From assembly GCA_963820045.1 (NCBI GenBank), contig CAWFYN010000007.1:21832-85831 (forward strand): a DNA stretch of 64,000 bases, in the 5' to 3' direction. Under the pieces are notes generated by a model. That model did not search any database. It saw only the letters and a program-made list of their open reading frames with translations, and was not told where the DNA came from. The stretch comes from an uncultured Actinomycetota bacterium (GTDB lineage: Bacteria > Actinomycetota > Actinomycetes > Mycobacteriales > Mycobacteriaceae). Position 1 is the first letter of the stretch. Each line of letters starts with the position of its first letter. Below are positions 12,055 to 59,107 of this stretch, piece by piece. The position numbers and the translations under genes are program-made.

Positions 12055-12390
12055 TCAGGGCACCGGTTCGACGGTGCGAATCATGACCGCGTCGGCGGCG
12101 CTGACCGGCGCGGGTTGGTGCATGATCTCGACCGCCATCGCGACCATGATGAGCGAATAGATCAGGTACAGCAGGTTGAGCGCGTCGTCGGGCATGTTGT
12201 CGAGCGGGAACTTGTCGCAGTACTCGATGGCCTCCTCGAGCCGAGGAAAGAATGCGTCGTAGAACTGGTGCATCTCGGGCATCGTGCTGGTAACCCTGGC
12301 GTCCCAGCGTTCGGTTTCCGTCGCCAGGCACCACCTTCGGGCGAACTTCTCCAATTCAGCGAATGCGCTGGGCAGCAGGACATCTGACAT
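12055..12390 (-). CDS. Hypothetical 111-aa protein directly downstream of Rieske oxygenase 1 (paralog of 16615-16953)
   Basis: MSDVLLPSAFAELEKFARRWCLA..FYDA..YCDKF..EPVP; strong similarity to second copy. Confidence 0.85.
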   Translation of the reverse strand: MSDVLLPSAFAELEKFARRWCLATETERWDARVTSTMPEMHQFYDAFFPRLEEAIEYCDKFPLDNMPDDALNLLYLIYSLIMVAMAVEIMHQPAPVSAADAVMIRTVEPVP

Positions 12391-12394
12391 GGGA

Positions 12395-13663: not shown

Positions 13664-13715
13664 CTGATCCTCCTGATCGACGCAGAAGTCGAACGCCTGA
13701 GTGCGGAAACGGTTG

Positions 13716-14459: not shown

Positions 14460-14490
14460 CGACTCCGCCCCATCGCGGTAGCTCCCTTGT

Positions 14491-14820
14491 TCACTCGTAG
14501 ACCACGCGCACGGTGCGGCTGGTCGGCAGCGCCTGGCAGGTCAACACCCAACCCTGGATGACCTCGTCGTCATCGAGTGCGTCGTTGTTGAGCATCCGGG
14601 CGCTTCCCTGCGTCAGCCGCGCCATGCACGTTGCGCAGGAACCGGTTTCGCACGAGGAGGGCGCGGCCAAGCCGGCCATGCGGGCGGTCTGCAGCAAGGT
14701 GTCGCCCGCACTGTAGGGCACCGTGGTGGCGCGCCGGTCCAGCTCGATGGTCACTTCCTCGGTCACGACCCCGTCGTTGTCGTGCGGCCCCGCCCCGGCG
14801 GCCGCGGTGGACTCTGACAT
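14491..14820 (-). CDS. Stand-alone [2Fe-2S] ferredoxin (resembles KshB/PaaE C-terminal domain)
   Basis: SSCETGSCATC..VLTCQA. Confidence 0.9.
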   Translation of the reverse strand: MSESTAAAGAGPHDNDGVVTEEVTIELDRRATTVPYSAGDTLLQTARMAGLAAPSSCETGSCATCMARLTQGSARMLNNDALDDDEVIQGWVLTCQALPTSRTVRVVYE

Positions 14821-14828
14821 CCCCCGAA

Positions 14829-14863
14829 CAATATCAACTACTTGCCATTAATATCAAGTACTA
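14829..14863. promoter_or_regulatory. Candidate MarR operator: AATATCAA(C/G)TACT twice, 20 nt apart; first copy shares 17 bp with 18348-18364
   Basis: CAATATCAACTACTTGC is the exact reverse complement of GCAAGTAGTTGATATTG at 18348. Confidence 0.65.
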
Positions 14864-14919
14864 GAGATACATCGTTGCGGTGCACCGCCCAAGCGCGGCG
14901 TCGACCGGCAGCGTCAACG

Positions 14920-15372
14920 TCAGTTGTCGACGTGGTCGTTGAAAAGCTCGTGGCCGGTGCCCTTTTCGACTACGCGGCCCAGCAGCTCGCGCAGCGTCTG
15001 CTGCTCCTGCACGCTGAGCACACCGAACACCTCCTCGTGAGCGGCGATCGCGTCGTTGACGACCGTTCCCGCGACGTTTCGGCCCTCCCCCGTGAGGTGG
15101 GCCCGGAGGATGCGGCCGTGCTGGGGATCTGGTTTCCTCTCCACCAGGCCACGCCGTTCCAGGGCGGTCAGCGCGAGCTGAACCCCTTGCGGGCTGATCA
15201 ACAGACGCCGGGCGAGTTCGGCTCCGGAAAGGCCGGGCTCATTGGCGAGTTGGCGCAACACACCGATCTGGGCGGTGCTGACGCCGTGCACTCGCATGGC
15301 GTCGTTGATGGTGGTCAGCGAATAGTAGAAGGCCTGCTTGAGCAGCCACAGGATGTTATCGGTGAGTTCCAT
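14920..15372 (-). CDS. MarR family transcriptional regulator
   Basis: STAQIGVLRQL..SGAELARRLLISPQGVQLALTALERRGLVERKPDPQHGR. Confidence 0.92.
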   Translation of the reverse strand: MELTDNILWLLKQAFYYSLTTINDAMRVHGVSTAQIGVLRQLANEPGLSGAELARRLLISPQGVQLALTALERRGLVERKPDPQHGRILRAHLTGEGRNVAGTVVNDAIAAHEEVFGVLSVQEQQTLRELLGRVVEKGTGHELFNDHVDN

Positions 15373-16618
15373 GCTCGGCTCCCTGCTTGTAGATCTCGCC
15401 GCCCTTCATGACAAACGGCACCTCAAGTGTGGTGTCGATGTCCCGGGAGGGATCGCCGGGCACGGCGATGATGTCGGCGAGGTAGCCGGGCGCCAGCCGG
15501 CCCAGTTCGTCGTCTGCGTCGATGAGCTCCGCGGCCACGACGGTGGCCGCCCGGATCGCCTGCATCGGCGACATGCCCCGCTTCACCAGCGCGCCGAGCT
15601 CCTTGGCGTTTTGCCCGTGCGGAATCGCCGGCGCGTCGGTGCCGCATGCGATCCGGACGCCGGCGGCAATCGCCTTGGGGAGCATGGCTTTCGCCCGCGG
15701 GAAGACCTCTTCGGCTTTCCGGCGGAGCTCGGGCGCGATCCGGTCGATCGCCATGGCCTCGGTCAAATACGTGGTCGAGACCAGGAAGGTGCCGTGATCG
15801 ACCATCATCTGGATGGTCTCGTCGCTGGCCAGGAACCCGTGTTCGATGCAGTCGATTCCGGCACGGATGCACGCCTGTATCGCGCTGTCGCCGACGGCGT
15901 GGGCGGCCACCCGGACTCCGGCGCGGTGAGCTTCGTCGGCGATCGCGGCGAATTCGGCATCGGAGTATTGCTGCGCGCCGGGGGCGGTGCTGTGGGACAT
16001 GACCCCGCCTGACGCGGACACCTTGATCAGCTTGGCGCCGTGCCGAACTTGGTACCGGACACAGGCAATGACGTCCGGCACCCCGTTGGCGATGCCCTCG
16101 GCAACCGACAGTGGCATGATCCCGGGCGCGAGCCGCTGAAAGACCGTGGGATCCAAGTGCCCGCCGTAGGGGGTGACGGCGTGACCCGCGGGATAGATAC
16201 GGGGACCGGCGTGCCAGCCCTGGTCGATGGCGCGCTGCAGCGCCACGTCGAGCAGGTAGCCGCCGGTCTTGACCATCAGGCCCAGGTTGCGCACGGTGGT
16301 GAAACCGGCCTCCAGCGTGGTGCGCGCGTTGACCGCACCACGCAAAGTCCGATAGGCCGGATCGTCTTGGACACCATGCATCGGCGACGGCAGGCCCTCG
16401 GGTCCACCGGGGCCGCCGATCAGCAGGTTGAGCTCCATGTCCATTAGGCCCGGCAGCAACGTCACGTCTCCCAGGTCGACGACCGAGGCCGAATCCGGCA
16501 CGCCACCTTCGGGATTGATGGCGGCGATGCGCTCGCCCTCGACCACCACGACCGCCGGTGAGCGAACCTGGCCGTCGACGACGTCAGCCCATCGCGCCGC
16601 CCGCAGGACCGTGGTCAC
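15356..16618 (-). CDS. Metal-dependent amidohydrolase (prolidase-like, Amidohydro_1 type)
   Basis: GTGA overlap at 16618; LLPGLMDME, IKVSASGG, AAHA, CIEHG, GTDA, GRLAPGYLADIIAV. Confidence 0.88.
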   Translation of the reverse strand: MTTVLRAARWADVVDGQVRSPAVVVVEGERIAAINPEGGVPDSASVVDLGDVTLLPGLMDMELNLLIGGPGGPEGLPSPMHGVQDDPAYRTLRGAVNARTTLEAGFTTVRNLGLMVKTGGYLLDVALQRAIDQGWHAGPRIYPAGHAVTPYGGHLDPTVFQRLAPGIMPLSVAEGIANGVPDVIACVRYQVRHGAKLIKVSASGGVMSHSTAPGAQQYSDAEFAAIADEAHRAGVRVAAHAVGDSAIQACIRAGIDCIEHGFLASDETIQMMVDHGTFLVSTTYLTEAMAIDRIAPELRRKAEEVFPRAKAMLPKAIAAGVRIACGTDAPAIPHGQNAKELGALVKRGMSPMQAIRAATVVAAELIDADDELGRLAPGYLADIIAVPGDPSRDIDTTLEVPFVMKGGEIYKQGAEHGTHR

Positions 16619-16953
16619 GGAACGGGCTCGGACACGCAATCCAGGGTGGACGCACCGGAGTCGGGCACCCGGGGTTGCTTCCAGCACTCCACCGGAAACG
16701 ACACCATGATCATCGAATACAGTAGGTGCATGAGATTCAGCACGTCGTCGGGCAAGTCGTCGAGGGAGAACTTGTCGCAGTAGGAGAGGGCCTCTTCCGC
16801 CCGGGGCATGATTGCGTCGTAGAAGGCCTTCATATCCGTCATGGTGCTCGCCAGCCGCTTGGCGTAGCGCTCAGGTTCAGAAGCCAGACACCAGTCCGCG
16901 AATTGTTCCAGGTCGGCGAATTCACTTGGCAGCATGGGGGACATCGCGCTCAC
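16615..16953 (-). CDS. Hypothetical 112-aa protein directly downstream of Rieske oxygenase 2 (paralog of 12055-12390)
   Basis: GTGA overlap with Rieske stop; MLPSEFADLEQFADWCLA..FYDA..YCDKF..EPVP. Confidence 0.85.
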   Translation of the reverse strand: MSAMSPMLPSEFADLEQFADWCLASEPERYAKRLASTMTDMKAFYDAIMPRAEEALSYCDKFSLDDLPDDVLNLMHLLYSMIMVSFPVECWKQPRVPDSGASTLDCVSEPVP

Positions 16954-18218
16954 ACTCCCGCCGTGGAGGTCCGGCGATACTGATCGATCCACGCCGCGGT
17001 CTCCTTGTGCAAGTGCCGCAGCAAGATCTCCTGATCGTTGAGCAGGAACCGATCGATCACACGCGACTCGATCATGCTTTGCGTCGCCTCCAGCGTGTTG
17101 GCGTCCTGCAGGCCGTATTCCTTGAACGAGACCGCCGCGAGTTCCTGGGCGACGCGCTCGCGCGGAGTGCGCGGCTCCGGGAAGTACAGCGTTCCCTCGA
17201 AGATGTGGGAGTTATACGAGGTGGGCCAGTAGTGGTACGTCAGATACCAGCCCTGACCCCAGAACAAAATCACGAAGTTGGGGAACAGCTGGAATGAATC
17301 CAGCCCCCATGGATCACACTTCGCGGGGTTGAGCCCGGCGGGCATCTCGCCCAGATCCGGCTTGTCCCAGGGACCGAACAGCCCGCTCTGGCAGATGTCT
17401 TCGATCGGCTTGCGCATCTCGGCCGACATCTCCCAGGCCCGCACGCCCGATGTGCTGACCAGCCGGTGCGGGCCGTCCAAACGGTAATGCGGTGCCTCAA
17501 AACCGGCCTCGGCGGCCGCCTTCGAGTACGCCGTCGGTGACTGGTTCGCGTGCAGCACGGGTGCGTGGTAGAACTCCTGGAACGCGTCCATGTAGAGCTT
17601 CCAGTTCGCCTTGACCTCCGAGCGGTAACACCAGCGCGAGGTCATCTTGTCGAATGGATAGCCCTGAAGGCCCATGACCATGGGCCCGAGGAATTCCCGC
17701 AGCGACTGTGCGGGCTCCTTGGCGAAGTTGACGAAGATGAAGCCTTCCCACACTTCGCAGTGCACCGATACCAACCCGTAGCGGCTCTTGTCGAGGTCGA
17801 AGAACTCCTCCTCCTGCTGGACGAAGGTCAGATTCCCGTCCAGGTCGTACCGCCAGGCGTGGTACTTGCAGGTGAATTGGCGGCACACACCGCTGGTTTC
17901 CTCGAGCGGCATGTCGTTCCACACCAGCTTGTTCCCGCGGTGGCGGCAGACGTTGTGATAGGCCTTGATTTCCCCGGACTTCGTGCGCACCAGGATGATC
18001 GAGGTGTTGACGGCCTTGAGTTCTTTGGTGAAGTAGCTGCCGGTCCGCGAGAGTTGTTCGACGCGACCGACATTGAGCCAGGCCCGCTTGAAGATCGCTT
18101 CGCGTTCCAACTCGTGGATCTCCGGACTGATGGAATCCTCATATGAGACCGGTCCGGTTCCCAGTTCGGGGTAGTGCTGCGTCCAGCTGCCCTCCGGGGG
18201 CTTGGGGAATCGAGGCAT
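16950..18218 (-). CDS. Rieske ring-hydroxylating-type oxygenase alpha subunit (copy 2)
   Basis: CRHRG..CKYHAW; DAFQEFYHAPVLH; QDA; ends TAGV like copy 1. Confidence 0.93.
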   Translation of the reverse strand: MPRFPKPPEGSWTQHYPELGTGPVSYEDSISPEIHELEREAIFKRAWLNVGRVEQLSRTGSYFTKELKAVNTSIILVRTKSGEIKAYHNVCRHRGNKLVWNDMPLEETSGVCRQFTCKYHAWRYDLDGNLTFVQQEEEFFDLDKSRYGLVSVHCEVWEGFIFVNFAKEPAQSLREFLGPMVMGLQGYPFDKMTSRWCYRSEVKANWKLYMDAFQEFYHAPVLHANQSPTAYSKAAAEAGFEAPHYRLDGPHRLVSTSGVRAWEMSAEMRKPIEDICQSGLFGPWDKPDLGEMPAGLNPAKCDPWGLDSFQLFPNFVILFWGQGWYLTYHYWPTSYNSHIFEGTLYFPEPRTPRERVAQELAAVSFKEYGLQDANTLEATQSMIESRVIDRFLLNDQEILLRHLHKETAAWIDQYRRTSTAGV

Positions 18219-21107: not shown

Positions 21108-22316
21108 ATGCCGTCTCGCGAACTTTCCTTCCCCGTGTTCGACGCGGACAACCACATGTACGAGCCCCAGGAGGCGCTGACCAAGTTCCTCCCCGACAAG
21201 CGCAAGAACGTCATCGACTACGTGCAGGTGCGCGGTCGCACCAAGATCGTGGTGCGCGGCCACATCAGCGAGTACATCCCCAACCCGACGTTCGAAAAGG
21301 TGGCACGCCCCGGCGCCCAGGAGGACTACTTCCGCAACGGCGCACAAGGCAAGACCTACCGAGAGATCCTCGGCGAGCCGATGAAGGCCATCCCCGCCTT
21401 CCGCGAACCGGGAGCCCGTCTAGAGGTCATGGACGAGCTCGGCATCGACTACGCCCTGATGTTCCCGACCCTGGCCAGCCTGGTCGAGGAACGCATGAAG
21501 GACGACCCGGAGATGACCCACGACGTCATCCACGCGCTCAACGAGTGGATGCACGAGCAGTGGTCGTTCAACTACAAGGACCGCATCTTCGCCACCCCGG
21601 TCATCACGCTTCCCATCGTCGAGCGCGCGCTCGAAGAACTCGAATGGTGCTTGGAGCGCGGTGCTCGCACCGTGCTGGTCCGTCCGGCGCCGGTGCCCGG
21701 TTACCGCGGCAGCCGGTCGTTCGGACTCGCGGAATTCGACCCGTTCTGGCAGGCCTGCATCAAAGCCGAGCTGCCGGTCTCGATGCACGCCTCGGACAGT
21801 GGTTACTCGGAGTTCGCGAACGTGTGGGAGCCCGGCGACGAGTTCCTGCCGTTCAAGCCGACCGCCTTCCGCAGCTTCGCGATGGGCCATCGCCCGATCC
21901 TGGACGCAATGGGTGCGCTGGTGTGCCACGGCGCGCTGTCGCGCAACCCGGAGCTGCGGATCCTGTCGATCGAAAACGGCGCCGACTGGGTGCCAGACCT
22001 GTTCAAGGGCCTCAAGGGCGTCTACAAGAAGATGCCGCAATCGTTCAGCGAGGACCCGATCGAGGCGTTCAAGCGCTGCGTCTACATCACCCCGTTCTGG
22101 GAGGACCGGTTCACCGAGATCGTCAAGATGGTGGGGACCGACCGGGTGCTCTTCGGCTCCGACTGGCCGCACCCCGAGGGCCTGAAGGACCCCATCTCCT
22201 TCGTGGACGAGCTGACCGATTTCGACGCGGAGGACGTCGCCAAGATCATGGGCGGCAACCTGATGAAGCTGATGAAGGTTTCGGCGCCGGCTTCGAAGAA
22301 GCCCGTCTCGGCCTAG
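21108..22316 (+). CDS. Amidohydrolase_2-fold protein (possible dinuclear oxygenase)
   Basis: DADNH, MHAS, IENG, GSDWPHPEG. Confidence 0.88.
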   Translation: MPSRELSFPVFDADNHMYEPQEALTKFLPDKRKNVIDYVQVRGRTKIVVRGHISEYIPNPTFEKVARPGAQEDYFRNGAQGKTYREILGEPMKAIPAFREPGARLEVMDELGIDYALMFPTLASLVEERMKDDPEMTHDVIHALNEWMHEQWSFNYKDRIFATPVITLPIVERALEELEWCLERGARTVLVRPAPVPGYRGSRSFGLAEFDPFWQACIKAELPVSMHASDSGYSEFANVWEPGDEFLPFKPTAFRSFAMGHRPILDAMGALVCHGALSRNPELRILSIENGADWVPDLFKGLKGVYKKMPQSFSEDPIEAFKRCVYITPFWEDRFTEIVKMVGTDRVLFGSDWPHPEGLKDPISFVDELTDFDAEDVAKIMGGNLMKLMKVSAPASKKPVSA

Positions 22317-23287: not shown

Positions 23288-26700
<3,413 letters not shown>

Positions 26701-26704
<4 letters not shown>

Positions 26705-27843
26705 CTGTTCGAACGACCCGCCTTCTCGCATTCATACACCCGCAGGTTGTGTTCCTCCGGTGTCCCAAACATGAAGCGGTACAACGTGATCCGGCGCAGA
26801 TAGAGGTGCAGGTCGTGTTCCCACGTGACGCCGATGCCCCCATGCATCTGGACGCAGGCCTGGACGATCTGGCCGCCCATCTCGCCCACGTAGGACTTGG
26901 CGATGCTGGCCGACAGGCCCGCCCCGGGTGAGTGGGCGGCAACGTCGGCGACCGCCGCGGCGGTGGTGGCGCGGCAGGCTTCCAGCCACAGCTTCATGTC
27001 GGCGAACTTGTGTTTGAGGGCCTGGTAGGACGCCAGCGGCCGCCCGAACGTGTGCCGGTCCAGCGCCCACTGGACGGTCAGGTCGAACACCGTCTGCAGG
27101 ATGCCGATCACCTCGGCGCACTGCAGTGTCTGTGCGATTTGGCTCTGCCGGTCGACCAGCGCCGCGGTTTCGGCGGGCGTGCCGACGGCCGCGGATCGCT
27201 CCACCACCACACCGTCGAAACGCACCCGGGCGTATTGCTTGACCAGGTCGACCGACTGCTGCGGCTCGATCGTGACGCCCGGCGCATCCGTGGGGACGAG
27301 AATCTGGCGGAGCTCGTCACCGCAGCGCGCCACCACGAGCAACACCGCGCTCTGCGCGCCGGCCTCCACCCGGTCCTTCGTGCCGTCGATGCGGTAGCCC
27401 GAATCGGTTGGCGTGGCCGTCACAGAGGGATTCAGCGGCGCCCAGCCCCGGCCCGGCTCCGAAACCGCCCACGACGCCACGATTTCCCCGGACATCAAGG
27501 CTTCGATGGTGGTGGTGTGCGGTTGCCAGTCCGCGCATTCGACGAGTGCGGCCAACACGACGCTGACCGGATACAACGGCCCGGGCGCCACCGTCTTGCC
27601 GAGCTGTTCGGCGACCATCGCCAGATCCGCCAAACCGCTGTCCGAGACGCTGCCGCCGCCCAATTCCTCCGGCACCAGCAGGCCCGTCCACCCGAGGTCC
27701 GCGGCGCGCCGCCACCATGCCGGATCAAAGGACACCCCCTCGGCGTGCAGCTCACGCACGCGGCGCAGCGGCGCTTCCTTTTCCAGAAAGGCTTGCGTTG
27801 TCGAGGTGAACAGCGTCTTTTCCGGTGAGTCGAGTGTGGTCAT
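26701..27843 (-). CDS. Acyl-CoA dehydrogenase, beta-type subunit
   Basis: ATG 27843; RHTFGRPLASYQALKH, QMHGGIGVTWEHD. Confidence 0.9.
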
Positions 27844-27937: not shown

Positions 27938-28909
27938 CTACACGGCGAACACACGGCGCAGCGAACGCGCGTGCAGGGCCCGGTTCTCCTGCGAAACAAC
28001 CCACTCGGGAACCAACGAGTCGAACCCGTTGAATGCCGCTGCGATGACGTGCAATTCGGTGTGCACGTAGGCGTGCAGCAGCCTGTTCGCGTAGTCGATG
28101 GCCTCATCGCGGCACGGATCGATCTCCGCGCAGCTGATGAACGTGGGCGGCAGGCCCTCGAGGTTCGCCCGGTGTGCGGGGACGTGTTGACCGCTGGCGC
28201 TCGCGTGCCCGAGGTAATGACCCCACGCCCGGCTCACCGCCGGCCCGTTGAGACCCGGCGTGCGCTGGAACTCACGCCTTGACTGGGTGGCGTCGGAGTC
28301 GAGCATCGGCTGGTGCAGGATCTGCACCAGGATCGGCGGACCTTCGTCGTCGAACATGCGCTGACTCAGGCCCGCAACCAGCGCCGCACCGGCGTCGCGC
28401 CCCATCACCGCGATGCGGTTGACATCCACGTTCAGCTCGGCGCAATTCCGGATGGCGTGATAGAAGCCCGCCTCGACGTCGTCCAACGCCGCGGGGCACG
28501 GATGTTCCGGCGCGAGCCGGTAGTCGACCGATATCAGCAGGCAACCGCCCGCTCTGGCCAGCTCCACGCATTGCGCGTGATCGGTGTCCAGGTTCCCGGT
28601 CACGAAGCCACCGCCGTGGGCATACAGGACAAGTGGTGAGGCCGACTCCGCTCGATCAAGGTCGGGACCCCGGTACAAACGGAGGTTCAGCTGGTGGCCG
28701 CCCGGGCCGGCGATGGTGCGCGTTTCGATGCCCACATCGGCGGTGTCGACTGCCGCGGCGCGCTCGGCGGCAAGCCGGTTGGCGTGTTCCCGCTCGACGG
28801 GCAGTGTCTCGGTGCGGAATTCGACGACGCCCAGTGCGGTGGCAGCCTCCCGGAGCACCGGGTCGATCCGGGTAAGGCCCTGCGGCCGCGTCAGATTCGT
28901 TTGTGTCAT
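27938..28909 (-). CDS. HSL-family alpha/beta hydrolase-fold protein with non-canonical catalytic residues
   Basis: HGGGF, SVDYRLAPEHP; nucleophile elbow GRDAG instead of GxSxG; AFNGF instead of xFHGF. Confidence 0.88.
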   Translation of the reverse strand: MTQTNLTRPQGLTRIDPVLREAATALGVVEFRTETLPVEREHANRLAAERAAAVDTADVGIETRTIAGPGGHQLNLRLYRGPDLDRAESASPLVLYAHGGGFVTGNLDTDHAQCVELARAGGCLLISVDYRLAPEHPCPAALDDVEAGFYHAIRNCAELNVDVNRIAVMGRDAGAALVAGLSQRMFDDEGPPILVQILHQPMLDSDATQSRREFQRTPGLNGPAVSRAWGHYLGHASASGQHVPAHRANLEGLPPTFISCAEIDPCRDEAIDYANRLLHAYVHTELHVIAAAFNGFDSLVPEWVVSQENRALHARSLRRVFAV

Positions 28910-28931: not shown

Positions 28932-29063
28932 TCATGCGGGCTCGTCCCGTTCCGGCGTGGGGCCGTGCCGGAAACCCTCTTCAACGTAGACCTGCGATTC
29001 CGCCTGGTAAAAGATGAGGTGCTTCTCGCTTCGGCTTGGCGGCCAGATGGGCCGCCGGCTCAG
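28932..29063 (-). CDS. Candidate 43-aa sORF, or frameshifted C-terminal tail of 29060-30208
   Basis: CTGA overlap with upstream stop; coding-like GC3 bias: SRRPIWPPSRSEKHLIFYQAESQVYVEEGFRHGPTPERDEPA. Confidence 0.3.
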   Translation of the reverse strand: MSRRPIWPPSRSEKHLIFYQAESQVYVEEGFRHGPTPERDEPA

Positions 29064-30208
29064 CGTTCTCCGGGAAGCGCCTTGACCGTCGCCGGTAGCC
29101 CGTAGAGAGCCATCGCGTTGCCGCGCATGATCCGTTCCCGCTGATCGGCGGGGAACCGGTTGATCGCGTAGGTGGGCGAGTCGTAGCTCCAGTGCGGGTA
29201 GTCCGTCGAGAACATCAGGTTGTCGCCGAGGTCCATCATCTCCAGGTACTCGCGGAACTGCACGGTGTCGGCGTCTTCCAGCGGCTGGGTGGTGAACCGA
29301 ACATGTTCGCGCACATACTCCGACGGGCGCCGCCGCACGTGCGGCAGGTCGCCGCGGCGGGCTTCCCAGATGCGGTCCATCCGCGACATCACCGGCATCG
29401 CCCACGTAAAGCCGCCTTCGACGAATACCACCCGGAGGTTGGGGTGGCGGTCGAAAGCGCCGTCGAACACCAGGCTCATCAGGTGCGAGACGTACAGCAG
29501 CGGCCAGGAGGCGAAGAAGTCGTGCCAGTGCCCGGGGTTGCCGACCGGGTACAACGGAATCAGCTCGAACGGCGTCTGCCCCATCAGGTGCGTGGCCACC
29601 GGGAAACCATTGCGCGCCGCGGCTTCATACAGCGGGTCGAAATGTGGGTTGCCGAAGGGAATTCCACGAGTCTGCGGTGTCATCAGCACTTGGGCCATGT
29701 ACGGATGTCCCGCCCACCGTTCCACCTCGCCTGCCGCCTGCTCGGGCGTCTGCGCGCTGACGCTGATCGATCCGCGCCAGCGGCCGTGCGCGTTGTTCTC
29801 ATCGAGCCAGACGTCGGCCAGCCAGTCGTTGTAGGCGGACTTGAGAATGTGTTCGGCCTGTGGCAGCTGGGCGTCACACATCGGCTCCAGCGTCGCGATG
29901 CTCACGCCGGCATCGAGCAGCAGCTGCTTGGCGGCGAACTCCGGGTCGCTGCCCGCGAATCCCCCACCCGGCGGGGCGGCGTCCATGCGCAGCGACATGG
30001 TCTTGTACGAATCCGGTGTGTCGTAAAAATGCGGCACCGGGGTCACCGCGTTGCCGGTCGGCCATATCTTGTCCACCCATTCCGGCGCCGCATACGACTT
30101 CAGCACGTCGGTCGAGACCGGCAACGGGTGCACGTCGGTGTCGACGATGGTGACCGCTATTTCGTCGTCGTGGCCGGTCGGCGAATCGACCCGTTCGATC
30201 GTGGTCAT
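29060..30208 (-). CDS. Amidohydrolase_2-fold protein with intact metal motifs (AibH2-like dinuclear oxygenase candidate)
   Basis: ATGA overlap; DTDVH, ATHL, FVEGG, STDYPHWSYD. Confidence 0.85.
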   Translation of the reverse strand: MTTIERVDSPTGHDDEIAVTIVDTDVHPLPVSTDVLKSYAAPEWVDKIWPTGNAVTPVPHFYDTPDSYKTMSLRMDAAPPGGGFAGSDPEFAAKQLLLDAGVSIATLEPMCDAQLPQAEHILKSAYNDWLADVWLDENNAHGRWRGSISVSAQTPEQAAGEVERWAGHPYMAQVLMTPQTRGIPFGNPHFDPLYEAAARNGFPVATHLMGQTPFELIPLYPVGNPGHWHDFFASWPLLYVSHLMSLVFDGAFDRHPNLRVVFVEGGFTWAMPVMSRMDRIWEARRGDLPHVRRRPSEYVREHVRFTTQPLEDADTVQFREYLEMMDLGDNLMFSTDYPHWSYDSPTYAINRFPADQRERIMRGNAMALYGLPATVKALPGER

Positions 30209-31251
30209 GCGACACGCTCCTTCAGTCCGTAGAGCTCGCTGGCGTTTCGCCATAACACCTTGTCGCGTTGCCCGGCGTCGAGGCCCTCGGCGACGCTCGC
30301 CGGCGGCGAGGTGGACCAATGGGGGTACGCCGACCCGTACATCAGCAGGTCGGACTTGTCGGTGAACGCCATCCATCGCTGCGTGTCCCCGGGGTCGGTC
30401 GGTCCGTCGAACGCCGACGAGCAGAACCTGACATGACCGGGCAGGTATTCGCTCGGGTAGCGATCGACCCACGGCGTCTGGTCACGCATCGACACCCAGA
30501 AGGTGTCCAGCCGCCAGATCAGCGGGGTGAGGATGTCGTAGCCGCCGTCGGCGAAGACGAACTTCAGGCCGGGGTGCCTGCCGAACATGCCCTCGACGAT
30601 GAGGGTGGCCAGGTGCACGAAGTAGTTCAGCGGCATGAACGCCGCGTATCCCGGATAGGTGTGGGCGTGCCCGGCGAAGGTGGGCGGATAGTCGACGCCA
30701 TTGCCACCGTTGATGTGCACCGCCACCGGCAGGCCGTGGGCGGCTGCGGCCTCCCAGATCGGCTCGAACATCGGTTTGCCGTAGGGCTCGCGGGACTGCA
30801 TAGGGACGCCGACCTGCACCAGCTTCGGGTGATCGGCCAGGCGCTCGATCTCCGCGACGGCACCCTTGGGGTCTTCGGGATTCACGCGGATGGTGCCCCG
30901 GAATCGGTCGGTGGTGTCGGGCTCGAGCCAGCGGTCGAGCAGCCAGTCGTTGACTGCGGCGCAGATCCTGCTGTTGAGCAGGTAGTCGGCGATATTGCCG
31001 CGCGTCAGCGGGTTGAGGATGGCGTAGTCGACACCCTGCGAGGACAGATATCGGCCGACGGTCTGCGGGTCGGACCCCGGGTAGTGGTCCCCGTAGAGGT
31101 CTTGGCGGTAGTCACCGCCGGGTGCGGAGTACCACTGCTGTTCGACGTCGGGAATCGATCGCAACTTGTGGGCGGCGGGCAAATAGCGCCGTATCTCCGC
31201 GTTGGAACGGAAATGCGGCTGCACGTTGGCATCGATCATCGATGGACTCAT
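30205..31251 (-). CDS. Amidohydrolase_2-fold protein with degenerate metal motifs (AibH1-like partner candidate)
   Basis: ATGA overlap; DANVQPH, FADGG, GSAYPHW. Confidence 0.85.
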   Translation of the reverse strand: MSPSMIDANVQPHFRSNAEIRRYLPAAHKLRSIPDVEQQWYSAPGGDYRQDLYGDHYPGSDPQTVGRYLSSQGVDYAILNPLTRGNIADYLLNSRICAAVNDWLLDRWLEPDTTDRFRGTIRVNPEDPKGAVAEIERLADHPKLVQVGVPMQSREPYGKPMFEPIWEAAAAHGLPVAVHINGGNGVDYPPTFAGHAHTYPGYAAFMPLNYFVHLATLIVEGMFGRHPGLKFVFADGGYDILTPLIWRLDTFWVSMRDQTPWVDRYPSEYLPGHVRFCSSAFDGPTDPGDTQRWMAFTDKSDLLMYGSAYPHWSTSPPASVAEGLDAGQRDKVLWRNASELYGLKERVA

Positions 31252-31613
31252 GCCCTCACATACACCTCCCCGTCGGTGACGTCGACCTGGTAGGTGCGGA
31301 TACGCCGCGTCGGATCGGCGACGTTTTGCCCGGTGGTGATGTCGAATTCCCAATTATGCCAAGGGCATCGGACGATTTGGCCGTCGCGGACACGCCGCAT
31401 CCGATCGGGTTCGTCCGGGGCGAACTCGTTGGTGCCACCGATCAAGCCGAGACACAGCGGGGCGCCCTCGTGCGAGCAATAGTTCACGATCGCGTAGAGC
31501 TCGCCGCGCACGTTGTACACGCCGATACCGAACTTCCCGACGTCGACGAGCTTCATCCCGCCGGGCGGCAGATCGTCCAGGGAGCACACAAAACGCCGCT
31601 GGGGCACTTGCAT
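31248..31613 (-). CDS. Rieske-type [2Fe-2S] ferredoxin
   Basis: NYCSHEGAPL..VRCPWHNWEFD; GAGG RBS before ATG 31613. Confidence 0.92.
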   Translation of the reverse strand: MQVPQRRFVCSLDDLPPGGMKLVDVGKFGIGVYNVRGELYAIVNYCSHEGAPLCLGLIGGTNEFAPDEPDRMRRVRDGQIVRCPWHNWEFDITTGQNVADPTRRIRTYQVDVTDGEVYVRA

Positions 31614-31641
31614 CACCACCTCTGACGCCACGCAACATCAA

Positions 31642-31660
31642 TACTGTGCCGGTTACGGTA
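31642..31660. promoter_or_regulatory. 19-bp family site 2
   Basis: TACTGTGC-CGG-TTACGGTA, 13/16. Confidence 0.65.
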
Positions 31661-31687
31661 ACCACGACAAGCCCGTTGGGCTTAGTT

Positions 31688-31707
31688 GCTATCTATACTA
31701 TGATAGC
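31688..31707. promoter_or_regulatory. Palindrome GCTATC-N8-GATAGC enclosing TATACT (-10-like) upstream of P450
   Basis: gctatctatactatgatagc. Confidence 0.4.
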
Positions 31708-31757
31708 GATATTCCCCGCGTATCGATCCGCTTACCGGCTGCTCAGGAGGAGCGCTG

Positions 31758-32984
31758 ATGACGCTCAGCACCGACCCGGCTAACCAGCCCGTCACACTCG
31801 ACCTCACCGGCGACACGAGTCCCTACCCGTTCTTCGAATACATGAGGCGCGCGGACCCGGTTTGGCACGGCGCCCTTTCGGACCACTCACAGATGCCGGA
31901 GGAATTGCGACCCAGCGACGAGTGGGTGTTGTTCGGCTACGACGGCGTTTTCCAGGCGTTCCGGGACGACCGAATCTTCACCTCGGCCGCCTACGACAAG
32001 ACGATCGGTTTGGTGATGGGCCACACCATCCTGGCGATGGGCGGTAGGGAGCATCACGATCACCGCAACCTGGTGGCCAAGGCCTTTCGCGCCACCGCGC
32101 TGGAACGCTGGGAGCCCTCGGTCATCGGGCCGGTCTGCGATCAGCTGATCGACGAGATCAAATACGACGGCCACGCCGACCTGGTCAAGGCGCTGACGTT
32201 CGAGTTTCCCACCCGAATCATCTCCGCACTGCTCGGTCTGCCCCCGGAGGACCTGGACCTCTTCCGGCGACTGTCGCTGGGTCTGATCTCGATTCAGACC
32301 GATATCGCGGCGGGGCTGACGGCGGCGGCGGAGTTGCAGGGGTACTTCCTCGAACAGGTCGAGCAGCGCCGGCGCAGACACACCGACGACATCATCGGCG
32401 ACCTGGTGGCCGCCGAGATCGACGGCGAGAAACTCTCCGATGAGGCCATCATCGCGTTCCTGCGCCTGCTCCTGCCCGCCGGCCTCGAGACCACCTACCG
32501 GTCGTCGGGTAACCTGCTGTACCTGCTGCTCACGCACCCCGAGCAGCTCGCGCTCGTTTACCAGGACCGGTCGCTGATACCGATGGCGATCGAAGAGGGC
32601 CTGCGCTACGAGACGCCGCTGACGATGGTCATGCGGACCACGACCGAGGAGGTCGAAATAGGCGGCAAGACAATCCCGTCCGACGCGCAGATCGACATGT
32701 GCATGGGCTCGGCCAACCGCGACGAGAGCCGGTGGACCGACCCCAACACCTTCGACATTCGCCGCCCGCGGCAAGCGCACATCGCGTTCGCCGGCGGTAT
32801 CCACATGTGTCTCGGCATGCATCTGGCCCGGCTCGAAACGCGGGTCATGCTGAACAGCCTGTTCGACCGCGTCAGGGATTTGGCCTTCGTGGCCGACGAC
32901 GGAACCGGCCAGGAGTCCAAGATCGTCGGGCTTACCTTCCGTTCCCCCAACAAGCTTCCGGTCACATTCGCCCCGGCCCGATGA
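31758..32984 (+). CDS. Cytochrome P450 (paralog of 46496-47704)
   Basis: AGLETT, EGLR, FAGGIHMCLG. Confidence 0.95.
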   Translation: MTLSTDPANQPVTLDLTGDTSPYPFFEYMRRADPVWHGALSDHSQMPEELRPSDEWVLFGYDGVFQAFRDDRIFTSAAYDKTIGLVMGHTILAMGGREHHDHRNLVAKAFRATALERWEPSVIGPVCDQLIDEIKYDGHADLVKALTFEFPTRIISALLGLPPEDLDLFRRLSLGLISIQTDIAAGLTAAAELQGYFLEQVEQRRRRHTDDIIGDLVAAEIDGEKLSDEAIIAFLRLLLPAGLETTYRSSGNLLYLLLTHPEQLALVYQDRSLIPMAIEEGLRYETPLTMVMRTTTEEVEIGGKTIPSDAQIDMCMGSANRDESRWTDPNTFDIRRPRQAHIAFAGGIHMCLGMHLARLETRVMLNSLFDRVRDLAFVADDGTGQESKIVGLTFRSPNKLPVTFAPAR

Positions 32985-34138
32985 GAAGCCGAGCGGCGCT
33001 CCTTCATGACGTCGGCGGGCCCTGGTCCGTCGAGGAATTCGAGCTCGACCCGCCCCGCGCCGGCGAAGTCCTGGTCGAGATGGCGGCGGCCGGGCTGTGC
33101 CACTCCGACGACCACATCCTCAAAGGCGACATGTCGGCACCCAACGAGGTGATGCGGTCCCTCGGCCTGCCGACCATGTTCCCGACGATCGGAGGCCACG
33201 AGGGCTCTGGGATCGTGCGGCAAGTCGGCGATGGCGTAACGGATTTCGCCCCCGGCGACCACGTGGTGATGTCGTTCGTCGCGGTGTGTGGACAGTGCCG
33301 ATGGTGCGCGACCGGCATGGAATACATTTGTGACGTCGGCGCTTTCACCCTCACGCCGGGGATGCCCACCGACGGCACCTTTCGTCATCACACCGCGGAC
33401 GGCCGCCCGCTGGGGCATTTAGCGAAGGTCGGGGCGTTCGCCGAACACACTGTGGTCTCGACGAATTCACTGGTGAAGATCGAGCCGCACCTGCCGTTGG
33501 CGCCGAGCGCGCTGCTGTCGTGCGCCATTCCGACCGGCTACGGCTCGGCCGCCAATCGCGCCGGCGTGCGCGGCGGCGACACCGTCGTCGTCGTCGGCGC
33601 GGGCGGAATCGGGACGGGCGCGATCCAGGGCGCCCGGATCAGCGGCGCCGCACAGATCGTCGCGGTGGACCCGGTGGACTTCAAGCAGAAATCGGCGCTG
33701 CAGTTCGGCGCGACCCACAGCGCCGCCACGATCGCCGAGGCGCAGGACATCGTGCGGGACTTGACATACGGCGTCATGGCCGACGCAGTGGTGGTCTCGC
33801 CTTCACTGATCACCCCCGACGACGTTCGCGACGCGCTGACGCTGACCCGCAAGGGCGGGACGTGTGTGCTCACCGGCATGACCTCGCAACTGACCCGATC
33901 GGTGAAGATCGACCTGCAGGAGTTCATCCTGATGAACAAGACCCTGGCCGGAACCATCTTCGGCTCGTGCAACCCGAGGGCGGACATCACCCGGCTGGCC
34001 AGGCTCTATCAAACCGGGCAGCTGCAGCTCGACGAGATGATCACCCGGCGTTATCGCCTCGACGAGATCAACGACGCCTACGACGACCTCCGCAACGGCA
34101 AAATCATTCGCGGCATCATCGATTTCGGGATCAGCTGA
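32981..34138 (+). CDS. Zn-dependent alcohol dehydrogenase (NDMA-dependent/Rxyl_3153-like)
   Basis: ATGA overlap; GLCHSD, GGHEG, CGQCRWC, GAGGIG. Confidence 0.88.
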   Translation: MRSRAALLHDVGGPWSVEEFELDPPRAGEVLVEMAAAGLCHSDDHILKGDMSAPNEVMRSLGLPTMFPTIGGHEGSGIVRQVGDGVTDFAPGDHVVMSFVAVCGQCRWCATGMEYICDVGAFTLTPGMPTDGTFRHHTADGRPLGHLAKVGAFAEHTVVSTNSLVKIEPHLPLAPSALLSCAIPTGYGSAANRAGVRGGDTVVVVGAGGIGTGAIQGARISGAAQIVAVDPVDFKQKSALQFGATHSAATIAEAQDIVRDLTYGVMADAVVVSPSLITPDDVRDALTLTRKGGTCVLTGMTSQLTRSVKIDLQEFILMNKTLAGTIFGSCNPRADITRLARLYQTGQLQLDEMITRRYRLDEINDAYDDLRNGKIIRGIIDFGIS

Positions 34139-42444: not shown

Positions 42445-43464
42445 GTGAAAGTCCCCTTCACCTGGAAGGTAACCGGGTGGTTCATGGTCGGGTGGTCGCC
42501 GGAATTTCCAATCGGCGAGGTGCGGCCGCTGAAGTACTTCGGCGAGGATCTGGTGGCCTACCGCGACGAGTCCGGTGAACTGCACGTCCTGGAGGCGCAC
42601 TGCAAGCACCTCGGCGCACACATCGGCCACGGCGGCAAGGTGCTCGGTGACTGCGTCCAGTGCCCCTTCCACGGCTGGCGCTGGGGCCCGGACGGGAGCA
42701 ATCGGTACATCCCCTACCAACCCGACCGGCCCAACCGCGCGCTGCGGCTGCGCGTGTTTCCGGTGCGCGAGCAGTACGACTGCGTGTTCATCTGGCATCA
42801 CCCGGACGGCAAGGAACCGCAATGGCAGATGCCGGACATCTTCAGGAAGTTCCCGCAATTCGAGACCGACCCGGCGGCCTACTACCGCGCCTATCCGGAA
42901 TTCTCCCGACGCGCGGAACGCGAACCGGTGCATCCGCAGATCGTCGCGGAGAACGCCCCCGACAGCGCCCATTTCGAATACGTGCACCACGCCACGGTGA
43001 CGCCGCGGGTGCTGGACTGGAAGATCGTCGACCGCGAGTGGCAGTTCGTCGCGGGATGGCCGGACGCGCGCAGCGACAGCGCCGAGGATCTCGCGTTGCG
43101 GTTCCACAGCCATCTGTTCGGCCTGGGCGGGGCGATCAGCGTCTTCGAGGGGGCGCAGAACCACCGGCTGATCTTCACCTGCACGCCGGTCGATGACCAG
43201 TGTTCGGATCTGTTCTACTCGATCTGGTGGCCGCGAATCCCCGGCGATACCTCCGACGTGCCGGACGGAAAGCTGCGCGACCTGATCGAAAGGCAGTTCC
43301 TGTCCACCGTCTTCGACGATCTGCAGATCTGGAGGTACCAGAAATACGTGGAACATCCGGCACTCTCCAAGGTCGACGCGAAAGGGTACATGGCACTGCG
43401 GAAGTGGGCCACGCAGTTCTATGACGTCGCGCCGGAGGCGGCGAACGGTTGCGGGTCGGCATGA
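42445..43464 (+). CDS. KshA-like Rieske oxygenase
   Basis: CKHLG..CPFHGW; ENAPDSAHFEYVH; DDLQIWRYQKY. Confidence 0.9.
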   Translation: MKVPFTWKVTGWFMVGWSPEFPIGEVRPLKYFGEDLVAYRDESGELHVLEAHCKHLGAHIGHGGKVLGDCVQCPFHGWRWGPDGSNRYIPYQPDRPNRALRLRVFPVREQYDCVFIWHHPDGKEPQWQMPDIFRKFPQFETDPAAYYRAYPEFSRRAEREPVHPQIVAENAPDSAHFEYVHHATVTPRVLDWKIVDREWQFVAGWPDARSDSAEDLALRFHSHLFGLGGAISVFEGAQNHRLIFTCTPVDDQCSDLFYSIWWPRIPGDTSDVPDGKLRDLIERQFLSTVFDDLQIWRYQKYVEHPALSKVDAKGYMALRKWATQFYDVAPEAANGCGSA

Positions 43465-59077: not shown

Positions 59078-59107
59078 GATCATCCTTTCCGGCATCACCG
59101 GCGAACA

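What the first reader, a model, noticed from the sequence alone, without database searches (positions are those of the whole stretch)
29060..31613. Rieske ferredoxin plus degenerate and intact amidohydrolase-fold pair: candidate AibG-AibH1H2-like dinuclear monooxygenase
Seen: three genes coupled by ATGA overlaps: Rieske ferredoxin; a TIM-barrel gene with eroded ligands (DANVQ, FADGG, SAYPH); a paralog with full ligands (DTDVH, H, E, DYPHWxxD). A hydrolase would not need a ferredoxin. Known: Rhodococcus AibH1H2 with Rieske ferredoxin AibG is an amidohydrolase-fold heteromeric Mn/Fe or Fe/Fe C-H hydroxylase. Inference: an uncharacterised mycobacterial member with a new substrate, divergent from and probably co-regulated with a P450-ADH operon.
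Basis: partly seen in the sequence, partly recalled or inferred. Interest (0 to 1): 0.85.

Follow-up and report, generated by a model that had tools for sequence, protein, structure and literature searches.

The report
Two-subunit Rieske-coupled amidohydrolase-fold oxygenase
A soil Mycobacterium carries an operon for a small iron-sulfur electron carrier plus two related 'amidohydrolase-like' proteins, one with a ruined and one with an intact two-metal site; it most likely forms an oxygen-inserting enzyme like Rhodococcus AibH1H2, but its subunits differ from the published pattern.

Summary
Three minus-strand genes are joined by ATGA overlaps: a Rieske ferredoxin (31613-31248), a ligand-eroded PF04909 protein 'AroA' (31251-30205) and a ligand-intact paralogue 'AroB' (30208-29060).

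Both PF04909 proteins match the amidohydrolase-related dinuclear oxygenases (AROs: 8SM7, SfbO, AibH2) far better than they match decarboxylases or hydrolases, by sequence and by predicted fold. The AibH1H2-like reading is therefore supported, with three corrections.

1. AroB keeps the six first-shell ligands (D25, H27, H207, E264, D336, H339). It has Ser where AROs have the second-sphere Asp (AibH2 D342), so it fails the published D-x-P-H-x-[D/E] motif. Ser or Thr is fixed throughout its clade.
2. AroA is not an AibH1 orthologue. It belongs to a separate, large clade of degenerate partner subunits. Every one of the five other members examined lies next to an intact PF04909 gene and a small Rieske gene.
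3. No reductase is encoded nearby. A paralogous cluster elsewhere in the genome carries a NuoF-like flavoprotein.

The module with its divergent P450-ADH pair is conserved in about 76 of 80 related mycobacterial loci, and all three genes are under purifying selection. The substrate is unknown; a bulky lipid or acyl-CoA is a guess from context. Verdict: a new variant of a known kind, of moderate interest.

The parts
31248..31613 (-). Small Rieske [2Fe-2S] ferredoxin (121 aa; C46-S-H48 ... C83-P-W-H86), the proposed electron donor
   Evidence: PF00355 at 1.4e-15. Nearest solved relatives are the ferredoxin components of oxygenase systems: CarAc, TodB, BphF. The C-x-H...CPWH motif was found in 61 of the 77 orthologues extracted; in the other 16 the pattern match returned nothing, which I attributed, without checking, to misplaced start coordinates in my extraction. 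dN/dS 0.15. A GAGGTGG Shine-Dalgarno-like sequence precedes the ATG at 31613.
30205..31251 (-). AroA: PF04909 TIM-barrel paralogue with an eroded metal site (N8, Q10, H179, D235, A308, H311, S313). Proposed non-catalytic partner subunit.
   Evidence: PF04909 at 1.5e-29. 38% identical to AroB. AF2 pLDDT 81; best Foldseek hits are SfbO, 8SM7 and AibH1/H2. In orthologues the two lost Asp positions drift freely (N/C/S/G and S/G/A/N), while Q, H, D and YPHWS are kept. dN/dS 0.12. Member of a 100/99-supported clade of degenerate subunits.
29060..30208 (-). AroB: PF04909 subunit with all six first-shell ligands of the ARO dinuclear site (D25, H27, H207, E264, D336, H339) but Ser341 in place of the second-sphere Asp. 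Proposed catalytic subunit.
   Evidence: PDB sequence hits: 8SM7 1.8e-63, AibH2 5.1e-54, decarboxylases 1e-12 or weaker. AF2 pLDDT 90, pTM 0.90. Foldseek 8SM7 TM 0.84/0.92. Ligand columns read from the alignment. DYPHW[ST][YF]D in nearly all full-length homologues listed, down to 43% identity; the few exceptions change the aromatic, the final Asp or, in one protein, the ligand Asp, never the Ser/Thr. dN/dS 0.08.
31614..31757 (.). 144-bp divergent intergenic region between the Rieske gene and the P450 gene; presumed shared promoter/operator region
   Evidence: Read directly. The simple scans found no sigma-70-like promoter and no long inverted repeat. Co-regulation is inferred only from the conserved divergent arrangement.
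31758..32984 (+). Cytochrome P450, divergent from the Rieske-AroA-AroB operon
   Evidence: PF00067. Generic CYP107/CYP125-like PDB hits around 1e-53 to 1e-58. An orthologue lies in the same divergent position in 76 of 80 loci.
33014..34138 (+). Zn-type alcohol dehydrogenase downstream of the P450 (start codon approximate)
   Evidence: ADH_N plus ADH_zinc_N. Present in 70 of 80 orthologous loci.
27938..28909 (-). Alpha/beta-hydrolase (HSL-type) gene 150 bp downstream of AroB, with G-R-D-A-G in place of the G-D-S-A-G nucleophile elbow
   Evidence: Abhydrolase_3 at 2.5e-51. Motif read from the translation. Present in 62 of 80 loci. Operon membership is inferred.
25460..27831 (-). Two adjacent, overlapping acyl-CoA dehydrogenase genes (26701-27831 and 25460-26731), probably a heteromeric pair
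   Evidence: ACAD domains. Best solved relatives are the two chains of 6WY8 (Tcur3481/Tcur3483), followed by 4X28 (fourth to eleventh in the lists). From my own knowledge, these are alpha2beta2 ACADs of steroid catabolism. Present in 63-66 of 80 loci.

Best explanation
The three genes encode the ferredoxin and the two-subunit oxygenase component of a multicomponent, O2-dependent oxygenase of the amidohydrolase-related dinuclear oxygenase (ARO) type.

Proposed electron path: NAD(P)H, then a reductase encoded elsewhere, then the Rieske [2Fe-2S] ferredoxin, then a dinuclear Mn/Fe or Fe/Fe site in AroB. Reductase candidates are the NuoF-like flavoprotein of the paralogous cluster on contig C3, or one of the genome's two ferredoxin reductases. 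The AroB site would be held by D25, H27, H207, E264, D336 and H339. It would activate O2 and hydroxylate, or otherwise oxidise, a C-H bond of an unknown substrate.

AroA has lost both Asp ligands and carries Asp in place of the bridging Glu. It most likely binds no catalytic metal and serves as an obligate structural partner of AroB, as AibH1 does for AibH2.

Shown: homology, ligand pattern, fold, synteny, purifying selection and translational coupling.
Inferred: the heterocomplex, the two-metal site, O2 chemistry, and the electron path.
A guess from context: the substrate is a bulky lipid, terpenoid or steroid-like molecule or its CoA ester. The context is the divergent P450-ADH pair, the heteromeric-type ACAD pair, and the acyl-CoA ligase and CoA-transferase genes of the island.
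For: - AroB and AroB-clade proteins are nested among canonical DHHEDH-D AROs (100/98).
- Sequence and fold match solved AROs about 40-50 orders of magnitude (sequence) and about 18 orders (Foldseek) better than non-redox PF04909 enzymes.
- All six first-shell ligands are invariant in 96 homologues.
- The residues the ARO literature calls gamma1 (V26), gamma4 (W340) and gamma5 (Y342), and the probable gamma2 (E108), fit the low-potential, Rieske-coupled, Mn-capable class (criteria in PMC13154177).
- The AibH2 D342A variant still takes up its full metal complement (PMC10401708), so loss of this Asp need not abolish the two-metal site.
- The Rieske gene is coupled to the pair by ATGA overlaps. 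It follows the pair in loci without any P450 (L083, with a ferredoxin reductase 2 kb upstream of the Rieske gene).
- In the paralogous A'-B'-Rieske' module, a NuoF-like FMN/4Fe-4S protein is conserved in 8 of the 10 fetched genome regions, plus the window's own genome.
- All five other A-type proteins checked lie beside an intact partner and a Rieske gene.
- dN/dS is 0.08-0.15 for all three genes.
- The stop/start overlap between A and B is kept in 72 of 78 loci.
Against: - AroB fails the published C-terminal ARO motif (Ser in place of D/E). Hibi et al. (PMC7782822) argued that this carboxylate distinguishes binuclear AibH2 from mononuclear AibH1, and D342A lowers AibH2 activity.
- No reductase lies within the window or within 7 kb in any of the 80 orthologous loci.
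- Three S/T-clade members occur without a partner or a Rieske gene (L085, L088, L092).
- There are no expression, metal or activity data; only soil metagenome DNA runs hold the sequence.
- A heterocomplex could not be modelled with the tools available.
Confidence: 0.68

Rival explanations
1. AroB (with AroA) is a mononuclear, non-redox PF04909 enzyme (decarboxylase, hydratase or hydrolase) acting on a product of the neighbouring P450/ADH. The Rieske ferredoxin serves the P450 rather than the barrel proteins.
For: Ser replaces the carboxylate said to be needed for the second metal (PMC7782822). The P450 is conserved next door in 76 of 80 loci and has no ferredoxin gene of its own in the core module. 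One S/T-clade homologue sits directly behind a P450 with no Rieske gene (L085).
Against: The Rieske gene is translationally coupled to AroA/AroB, not to the P450. The Rieske-A-B module occurs without any P450 (L083, L096-L100). All six dinuclear ligands are invariant, which known mononuclear PF04909 enzymes do not show (PMC13154177). Decarboxylases are only remote matches. D342A AibH2 still binds all its metals (PMC10401708).
Confidence: 0.12
2. It is an ARO-type oxidase, but the chemistry is not hydroxylation. The Ser/Thr swap at the water-binding second-sphere position retunes the site for desaturation, oxidative decarboxylation or C-C cleavage, as in the BarH/LynB7/DolJ branch.
For: AROs already span hydroxylation, dealkylation and oxidative decarboxylation (PMC10811679, PMC13154177). 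The substitution is fixed across a whole clade, which suggests functional retuning rather than drift.
Against: There is no direct evidence. The oxidative decarboxylases belong to the distant high-potential cluster, which largely lacks Rieske partners (PMC13154177).
Confidence: 0.12
3. AroB works alone as a homo-oligomer like SfbO. AroA is an independent enzyme or binding protein, or a decaying duplicate, that merely shares the operon.
For: The characterised relatives 8SM6-8SM9 were each expressed and crystallised as single proteins (PMC10811679). Single B-type genes exist (L085, L088, L092).
Against: AroA dN/dS is 0.12. A-type proteins form an old, diverse clade. All five other A-type representatives examined sit next to a B-type gene and a Rieske gene, as do the paired A' genes of the cluster-2 loci. 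The A-to-B overlap is kept in 72 of 78 loci. The two genomes with single B genes that were examined also carry a paired copy (G047, G298).
Confidence: 0.08

Closest known systems
AibH1H2-AibG-AibF, the 2-aminoisobutyrate hydroxylase of Rhodococcus wratislaviensis (PDB 6M1W, 8FUL-8FUO)
   Same: Two paralogous PF04909 barrels are encoded side by side with a small Rieske ferredoxin. One subunit carries the six-ligand dinuclear site (AibH2 D25, H27, H211, E265, D337, H340 correspond to AroB D25, H27, H207, E264, D336, H339). The other is presumably non-catalytic. The host is an actinobacterium and the context is catabolic.
   Different: - AroA is not in the AibH1 lineage: AibH1-like proteins are sister to AibH2-like proteins at 100/97.
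- AibH1 keeps D, H, H, E, D and binds one metal. AroA has lost both Asp ligands and has Asp in place of Glu.
- AroB has Ser where AibH2 has D342, which hydrogen-bonds an M2 water and contacts AibH1 K282 (PMC12141560).
- No AibF-type reductase or permease is linked.
- Gene order is Rieske-A-B, against H1-H2-G-F in the aib cluster.
- AroB is only about 31% identical to AibH2.
Homomeric low-potential AROs: SfbO (8SM6) and the orphan 'TruffO' proteins 8SM7, 8SM8 and 8SM9
   Same: These are the best sequence and fold matches of both AroA and AroB. They share D-V-H with a hydrophobic gamma1, aromatic gamma4 and gamma5, and a neighbouring Rieske ferredoxin.
   Different: They were each expressed alone, and the papers read here describe no degenerate partner; SfbO crystallises as a homotetramer (PMC13154177). 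They carry the canonical D-Y-P-H-[WF]-D.
PtmU3 and DitZ (high-potential diiron AROs acting on diterpenoid substrates)
   Same: Same superfamily and ligand set. They provide precedent for bulky terpenoid or CoA-ester substrates, which fits the lipid/CoA context here.
   Different: They are only remote matches (E about 1e-13, TM about 0.7). They have a hydrophilic gamma1 and no Rieske partner.
Non-redox PF04909 enzymes (LigW, ACMSD, gamma-resorcylate and 2,3-DHBA decarboxylases)
   Same: The same Pfam family and TIM-barrel fold.
   Different: E-values of 1e-12 or weaker and TM about 0.64. They lack the D-x-H and D-x-P-H ligand motifs (PMC13154177).

Membership tests
ARO superfamily (amidohydrolase-related dinuclear oxygenases; Liu et al. 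2024/2026) | PF04909 amidohydrolase_2 TIM-barrel fold | tested here: met
   Pfam hits for both proteins. AF2 models with pLDDT 90 and 81. Top Foldseek hits are all solved AROs.
ARO superfamily (amidohydrolase-related dinuclear oxygenases; Liu et al. 2024/2026) | N-terminal D-x-H on beta-strand 1 (ligands of metal site 1) | tested here: met
   AroB has D25-V26-H27 on predicted strand 22-26, invariant in 96 homologues. AroA does NOT meet it (N-V-Q).
ARO superfamily (amidohydrolase-related dinuclear oxygenases; Liu et al. 2024/2026) | C-terminal D-x-P-H-x-[D/E] motif | tested here: not met
   AroB reads D-Y-P-H-W-S, and S/T is fixed across its clade. AroA reads A-Y-P-H-W-S. The two metal ligands of the motif (D336, H339) are present in AroB; only the last, second-sphere position fails.
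ARO superfamily (amidohydrolase-related dinuclear oxygenases; Liu et al. 2024/2026) | All six first-shell ligands (Asp, His, His, Glu, Asp, His) | tested here: met
   By alignment with AibH2, SfbO, 8SM7 and 8SM8, AroB reads DHHEDH and AroA reads NQHDAH.
ARO superfamily (amidohydrolase-related dinuclear oxygenases; Liu et al. 2024/2026) | Redox-active two-metal cofactor that reacts with O2 | not testable with these tools
   Needs purified protein (ICP, UV/vis at 350 nm, EPR).
ARO superfamily (amidohydrolase-related dinuclear oxygenases; Liu et al. 2024/2026) | Low-potential subclass: hydrophobic gamma1, hydrophilic gamma2, aromatic gamma4, and a neighbouring small Rieske ferredoxin | tested here: met
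   V26, E108 (the gamma2 column is my own mapping onto the SfbO Thr), W340, and an aromatic gamma5 Y342. The Rieske gene overlaps aroA.
AibH1H2-type heteromeric three-component monooxygenase | Two adjacent paralogous PF04909 subunits, one catalytic and one not | tested here: met
   38% identical paralogues joined by an ATGA overlap. The ligand patterns are intact in one and eroded in the other.
AibH1H2-type heteromeric three-component monooxygenase | The non-catalytic subunit belongs to the AibH1 lineage | tested here: not met
   In the careful tree the A-type clade (100/99) is separate, and AibH1-like is sister to AibH2-like (100/97). The AU test against a joint clade gives p 0.049 and a log-likelihood 28.9 lower, which is borderline. 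An earlier test on the quick tree was uninformative.
AibH1H2-type heteromeric three-component monooxygenase | The non-catalytic subunit keeps a structural mononuclear site (D, H, H, E, D) | tested here: not met
   AroA has N, Q, H, D, A at these positions. The two Asp positions vary freely among orthologues.
AibH1H2-type heteromeric three-component monooxygenase | A dedicated ferredoxin:NAD+ reductase in the same cluster (AibF) | tested here: not met
   No NuoF-like or ferredoxin-reductase homologue lies in the window or in the 80 orthologous loci. Candidates lie elsewhere in the genome.
AibH1H2-type heteromeric three-component monooxygenase | Stable alpha2-alpha'2 heterotetramer | not testable with these tools
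   Only indirect support: conserved adjacency, overlap and purifying selection.
Non-redox PF04909 decarboxylases/hydrolases | Closest similarity to LigW, ACMSD, LigI or other PF04909 decarboxylases/hydrolases, with a mononuclear ligand set lacking D-x-H and D-x-P-H | tested here: not met
   These are 50 orders of magnitude weaker hits than AROs, with TM about 0.64 against 0.84. AroB carries both ARO ligand motifs.

The most novel reading that the evidence does not exclude
The degenerate 'A-type' proteins define an unrecognised, old and widespread heteromeric branch of the ARO superfamily. They have lost both Asp ligands and carry Asp in place of the bridging Glu, and they lie next to an intact partner and a Rieske ferredoxin in every case examined. 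This partner arose separately from AibH1. In the mycobacterial Ser/Thr clade, the missing second-sphere carboxylate sits on the loop that forms the subunit interface in AibH1H2. Its role would then be taken over or retuned by the A subunit, giving a dinuclear site whose properties depend on the heterocomplex. In the paralogous module, a NuoF-like FMN/4Fe-4S flavoprotein would be a new kind of reductase for Rieske ferredoxins.
Probability: 0.3. Interest if true: 0.72.

Novelty: new variant of a known kind. Interest (0 to 1): 0.52.

Why it matters
AROs are a recently recognised class of Mn/Fe or Fe/Fe C-H oxidising enzymes. The papers I read describe only one heteromeric example (AibH1H2) and call the role of its silent subunit elusive.

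This locus shows three things. A second lineage of silent partner subunits, probably of separate origin, is common. Catalytic subunits paired with it can lack the carboxylate used to define the superfamily in silico, so the published motif filter misses this whole clade, which is common in mycobacteria. And such systems sit in lipid-catabolic islands of environmental mycobacteria.

This offers a natural test of what the second-sphere Asp and the partner subunit actually do. It also points to an unassigned oxidation step in mycobacterial lipid, terpenoid or steroid-like catabolism.

Tried and rejected
- Promoter/terminator and inverted-repeat scans of the operon and the 144-bp divergent region gave nothing above shuffled background. 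Co-regulation therefore stays an inference.
- The search for public RNA runs found only soil metagenome DNA contigs, so there is no expression evidence.
- The genome-contig scan with a diverse alignment returned only close orthologues (84-97% identity). Distant contexts had to come from the look-up of encoding contigs and the fetch from genomes instead.
- The first AU test on the quick 130-sequence tree was uninformative: the constrained search found a better tree than the free quick search. I rebuilt a careful 67-sequence tree and repeated the test. It favours a separate origin for AroA and AibH1, but only at p 0.049.
- I considered that AroA might be a decaying pseudogene. This is rejected by dN/dS 0.12 and by the age and diversity of its clade.
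- I considered that the Rieske protein is really the P450's partner. This is judged unlikely because the Rieske-A-B module occurs without P450s.
- NCBIfam has no model for either barrel protein.
- A heterodimer model and metal-site geometry could not be computed: only single chains are folded and model coordinates are not exposed.
Full report
**1. What is there**

On the minus strand, three genes are joined by ATGA stop/start overlaps:
- a 121-aa Rieske ferredoxin (31613-31248);
- a 348-aa PF04909 protein, here called AroA (31251-30205);
- a 382-aa PF04909 protein, here called AroB (30208-29060).

Pfam gives Rieske at 1.4e-15 and Amidohydro_2 at 1.5e-29 and 3e-32. NCBIfam has no model for either barrel. 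The Rieske ligands are intact (C46-x-H48 ... C83-P-W-H86). Its nearest solved relatives are ferredoxin components of oxygenase systems such as CarAc, TodB and BphF. AroA and AroB are 38% identical.

**2. Family assignment**

Against all PDB sequences, AroB hits the orphan oxygenase 8SM7 (1.8e-63), AibH2 (5.1e-54), 8SM9, 8SM8, SfbO and AibH1 (about 1e-38). PtmU3 follows at 1.8e-13, and decarboxylases at 4e-12 or weaker. AroA hits SfbO (1.4e-54), 8SM7 (6.9e-53), and AibH1 and AibH2 at about 1e-36.

AlphaFold2 models are confident: AroB has pLDDT 90 and pTM 0.90, and AroA has pLDDT 81. Foldseek ranks the solved AROs first for both. For AroB, 8SM7 gives E 1.5e-32 and TM 0.84/0.92. Decarboxylases appear only at E about 1e-14 and TM about 0.64.

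These relatives are the 'amidohydrolase-related dinuclear oxygenases' (AROs) defined by the Rittle laboratory (PMC10811679, PMC13154177). That group also published the rule that a PF04909 gene next to a small Rieske gene marks a candidate oxygenase (PMC10401708, PMC10811679).

**3. Ligands**

I aligned both proteins with AibH2, SfbO, 8SM7 and 8SM8.
- AroB carries all six first-shell ligands: D25, H27, H207, E264, D336 and H339. These correspond to AibH2 D25, H27, H211, E265, D337 and H340 (PMC7782822). They are invariant in 96 homologues.
- AroA reads N, Q, H, D, A, H at the same positions.

The published C-terminal ARO motif is D-x-P-H-x-[D/E] (PMC13154177), and AroB reads D-Y-P-H-W-S. The missing carboxylate is AibH2 D342, which hydrogen-bonds a water on metal site 2.
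- The D342A variant has reduced activity but still binds a full set of metals (PMC10401708).
- Hibi et al. regarded this residue as the feature that separates binuclear AibH2 from mononuclear AibH1 (PMC7782822).
- In AibH1H2, D342 also contacts AibH1 K282 at the subunit interface (PMC12141560).

The Ser is not a local accident. Nearly every listed full-length homologue of AroB, down to 43% identity, has DYPHW[ST][YF]D; the few exceptions change the aromatic, the final Asp or, in one protein, the ligand Asp, never the Ser/Thr. The Ser/Thr proteins form one clade (100/99) nested among canonical Asp-bearing AROs (100/98). The motif filter used to count about 17,000 AROs would therefore miss this clade.

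By the published metal-preference criteria, AroB looks like a low-potential, Rieske-coupled, Mn-capable ARO. Gamma1 is Val, gamma4 is Trp, gamma5 is Tyr, and the probable gamma2 is Glu. The gamma2 column is my own mapping.

**4. The eroded subunit**

In 78 orthologues of AroA, the two lost Asp positions drift freely (N/C/S/G and S/G/A/N). The Q, H, D and Y-P-H-W-S positions are kept. The gene is nevertheless under purifying selection: dN/dS is 0.12, against 0.08 for AroB and 0.15 for the Rieske gene. Its stop overlaps the AroB start in 72 of 78 loci.

An exhaustive HMMER search with AroA found 326 cluster representatives at E ≤ 1e-30. Among 130 aligned sequences, 37 formed one clade with the AroA-type signature (SH-aLRT 100; 100/99 in the careful 67-sequence tree). 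The signature is loss of both Asp ligands with Asp in place of the bridging Glu.

AibH1 and its relatives keep the DHHEDH pattern. They sit elsewhere in the tree, as sister to the AibH2-like clade (100/97). Forcing AibH1-like and A-type proteins into one clade costs 28.9 log-likelihood units, with AU p = 0.049. A separate origin is thus favoured but not firmly proven, and an earlier quick-tree test was uninformative.

I looked up five A-type representatives from different subclades. Every one lies beside a longer PF04909 gene with an intact DYPH[WH]D motif and a small Rieske gene. The A + B + Rieske architecture is therefore general. I found no description of it in the ARO papers I read: a search of PMC13154177 finds neither 'heteromer' nor 'heterodimer', and the 2025 review notes only that AibH2 homologues often lack AibH1-like neighbours.

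**5. Distribution and context**

The 80 best genomic loci are all from Mycobacterium. They include M. nebraskense (97%), M. scrofulaceum, M. interjectum, M. bohemicum, M. alsense, M. paraense, M. asiaticum and M. paraffinicum, plus soil MAGs.

Gene presence across these 80 loci:

| Gene | Loci with it |
|---|---|
| Rieske | 77 |
| AroA | 78 |
| Divergent P450 | 76 |
| ADH | 70 |
| ACAD genes | 63-66 |
| HSL-type hydrolase | 62 |

In a sample of 301 genomes of the class, only 11 have an AroB relative at E ≤ 1e-60, and 10 of these 11 belong to the window's own family.

The window's own genome (5.16 Mb, 13 contigs) holds a second, paralogous module on contig C3. Its order is A'-B'-Rieske'-alpha/beta hydrolase, followed by a NuoF-like protein (Complex1_51K plus NADH_4Fe-4S domains) and another ACAD pair. 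This module is conserved in 8 of the 10 further genome regions fetched, including one genome from another family.

More distant pairs (54-58% identity) also keep the order Rieske-A-B. One of these has a classical ferredoxin reductase 2 kb upstream of its Rieske gene and no P450.

Three Ser/Thr-clade genes occur alone. The two genomes among these also carry a paired copy.

No reductase homologue lies in the window or in any of the 80 orthologous loci. The genome encodes the NuoF-like protein, the true NuoF and two ferredoxin reductases elsewhere.

**6. Mechanism proposed**

Electrons pass from NAD(P)H through a reductase encoded in trans to the Rieske ferredoxin. From there they reach a dinuclear Mn/Fe or Fe/Fe site in AroB, which activates O2 and oxidises a C-H bond. 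AroA is an obligate, metal-poor scaffold.

The substrate is unknown. Several features point to a bulky lipid, terpenoid or steroid-like compound or its CoA ester:
- the conserved P450-ADH pair;
- an ACAD pair whose best solved relatives are the two chains of 6WY8, followed by 4X28 (fourth to eleventh in the lists), which I know as heteromeric ACADs of steroid catabolism;
- the surrounding genes whose N-terminal sequences look like acyl-CoA ligases and a family III CoA-transferase (not checked against Pfam).

This is context only.

**7. Rivals**

- A non-redox mononuclear enzyme, with the Rieske protein serving the P450. This is disfavoured by the translational coupling, by P450-free Rieske-A-B modules and by the invariant six-ligand set.
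- A different oxidative chemistry retuned by the Ser/Thr swap. This remains open.
- AroB working alone. This is disfavoured by the evolutionary persistence of A-type partners.

**8. Verdict**

This is a new variant of a known kind, not a new class, because the oxygenase prediction for Rieske-linked PF04909 genes is already in the literature.

The new points are:
- the distinct partner-subunit lineage;
- the Ser/Thr catalytic clade that escapes the published motif;
- the NuoF-like reductase candidate in the paralogous module.

Nothing biochemical was or could be tested here.

Noticed in passing
own genome G000 contig C3:86861-89166 (= L001 8861-11167, minus strand): A second, paralogous module: A' (ligand pattern S-H-H-D-S-H), B' (DHHEDH-T), Rieske', an alpha/beta hydrolase, a NuoF-like FMN/4Fe-4S protein and an ACAD pair. 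The module is conserved in 8 of the 10 other genome regions fetched, including one genome from a different family. The NuoF-like protein is a candidate NADH:Rieske-ferredoxin reductase.
   Followed up: partly
L001 about 9900-9960 (own genome C3, B' gene): In this genome the B' catalytic gene has a +1 frameshift in a CCCC run near codon 33. This separates the D-S-D-V-H ligand motif from the rest of the barrel. It is either a real pseudogene or a homopolymer assembly error; orthologues are intact.
   Followed up: partly
window 27938-28909 (-): The HSL-type alpha/beta hydrolase just downstream of AroB has an intact HGGG oxyanion motif. It reads G-R-D-A-G instead of G-D-S-A-G, and F-N-G-F where the catalytic His is expected. 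The putative operon would then hold two catalytically eroded proteins. An orthologue is present in 62 of 80 loci.
   Followed up: partly
window 21108-22316 (+) and 57875-59098 (-): Two further PF04909 genes carry D-x-D-N-H (hydrophilic gamma1). The first also has SDWPHPE, the signature of PtmU3/DitZ-like high-potential diiron AROs. Each is 26-28% identical to AroB, and neither has a Rieske neighbour.
   Followed up: no
L085 4619-8833: A single Ser/Thr-clade AroB homologue (46% identical) sits between a P450 and a ChsH2-like/thiolase pair, with no partner subunit and no Rieske gene. This looks like a steroid side-chain context.
   Followed up: no
window 25460-27831 (-) and L001 12782-14939 (+): Both ARO-like modules of this genome have an adjacent, overlapping pair of ACAD genes. 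The best solved relatives of the window's pair are the two chains of the heteromeric 6WY8 enzyme. This suggests CoA-ester substrates for both modules.
   Followed up: partly
window 12055-18218 and 42445-43464: The same 64-kb island also holds two Rieske ring-hydroxylating alpha subunits and a KshA-like Rieske oxygenase. It holds luciferase-like monooxygenases, a second P450 and several SDRs as well, making it a dense oxidative catabolic island.
   Followed up: no
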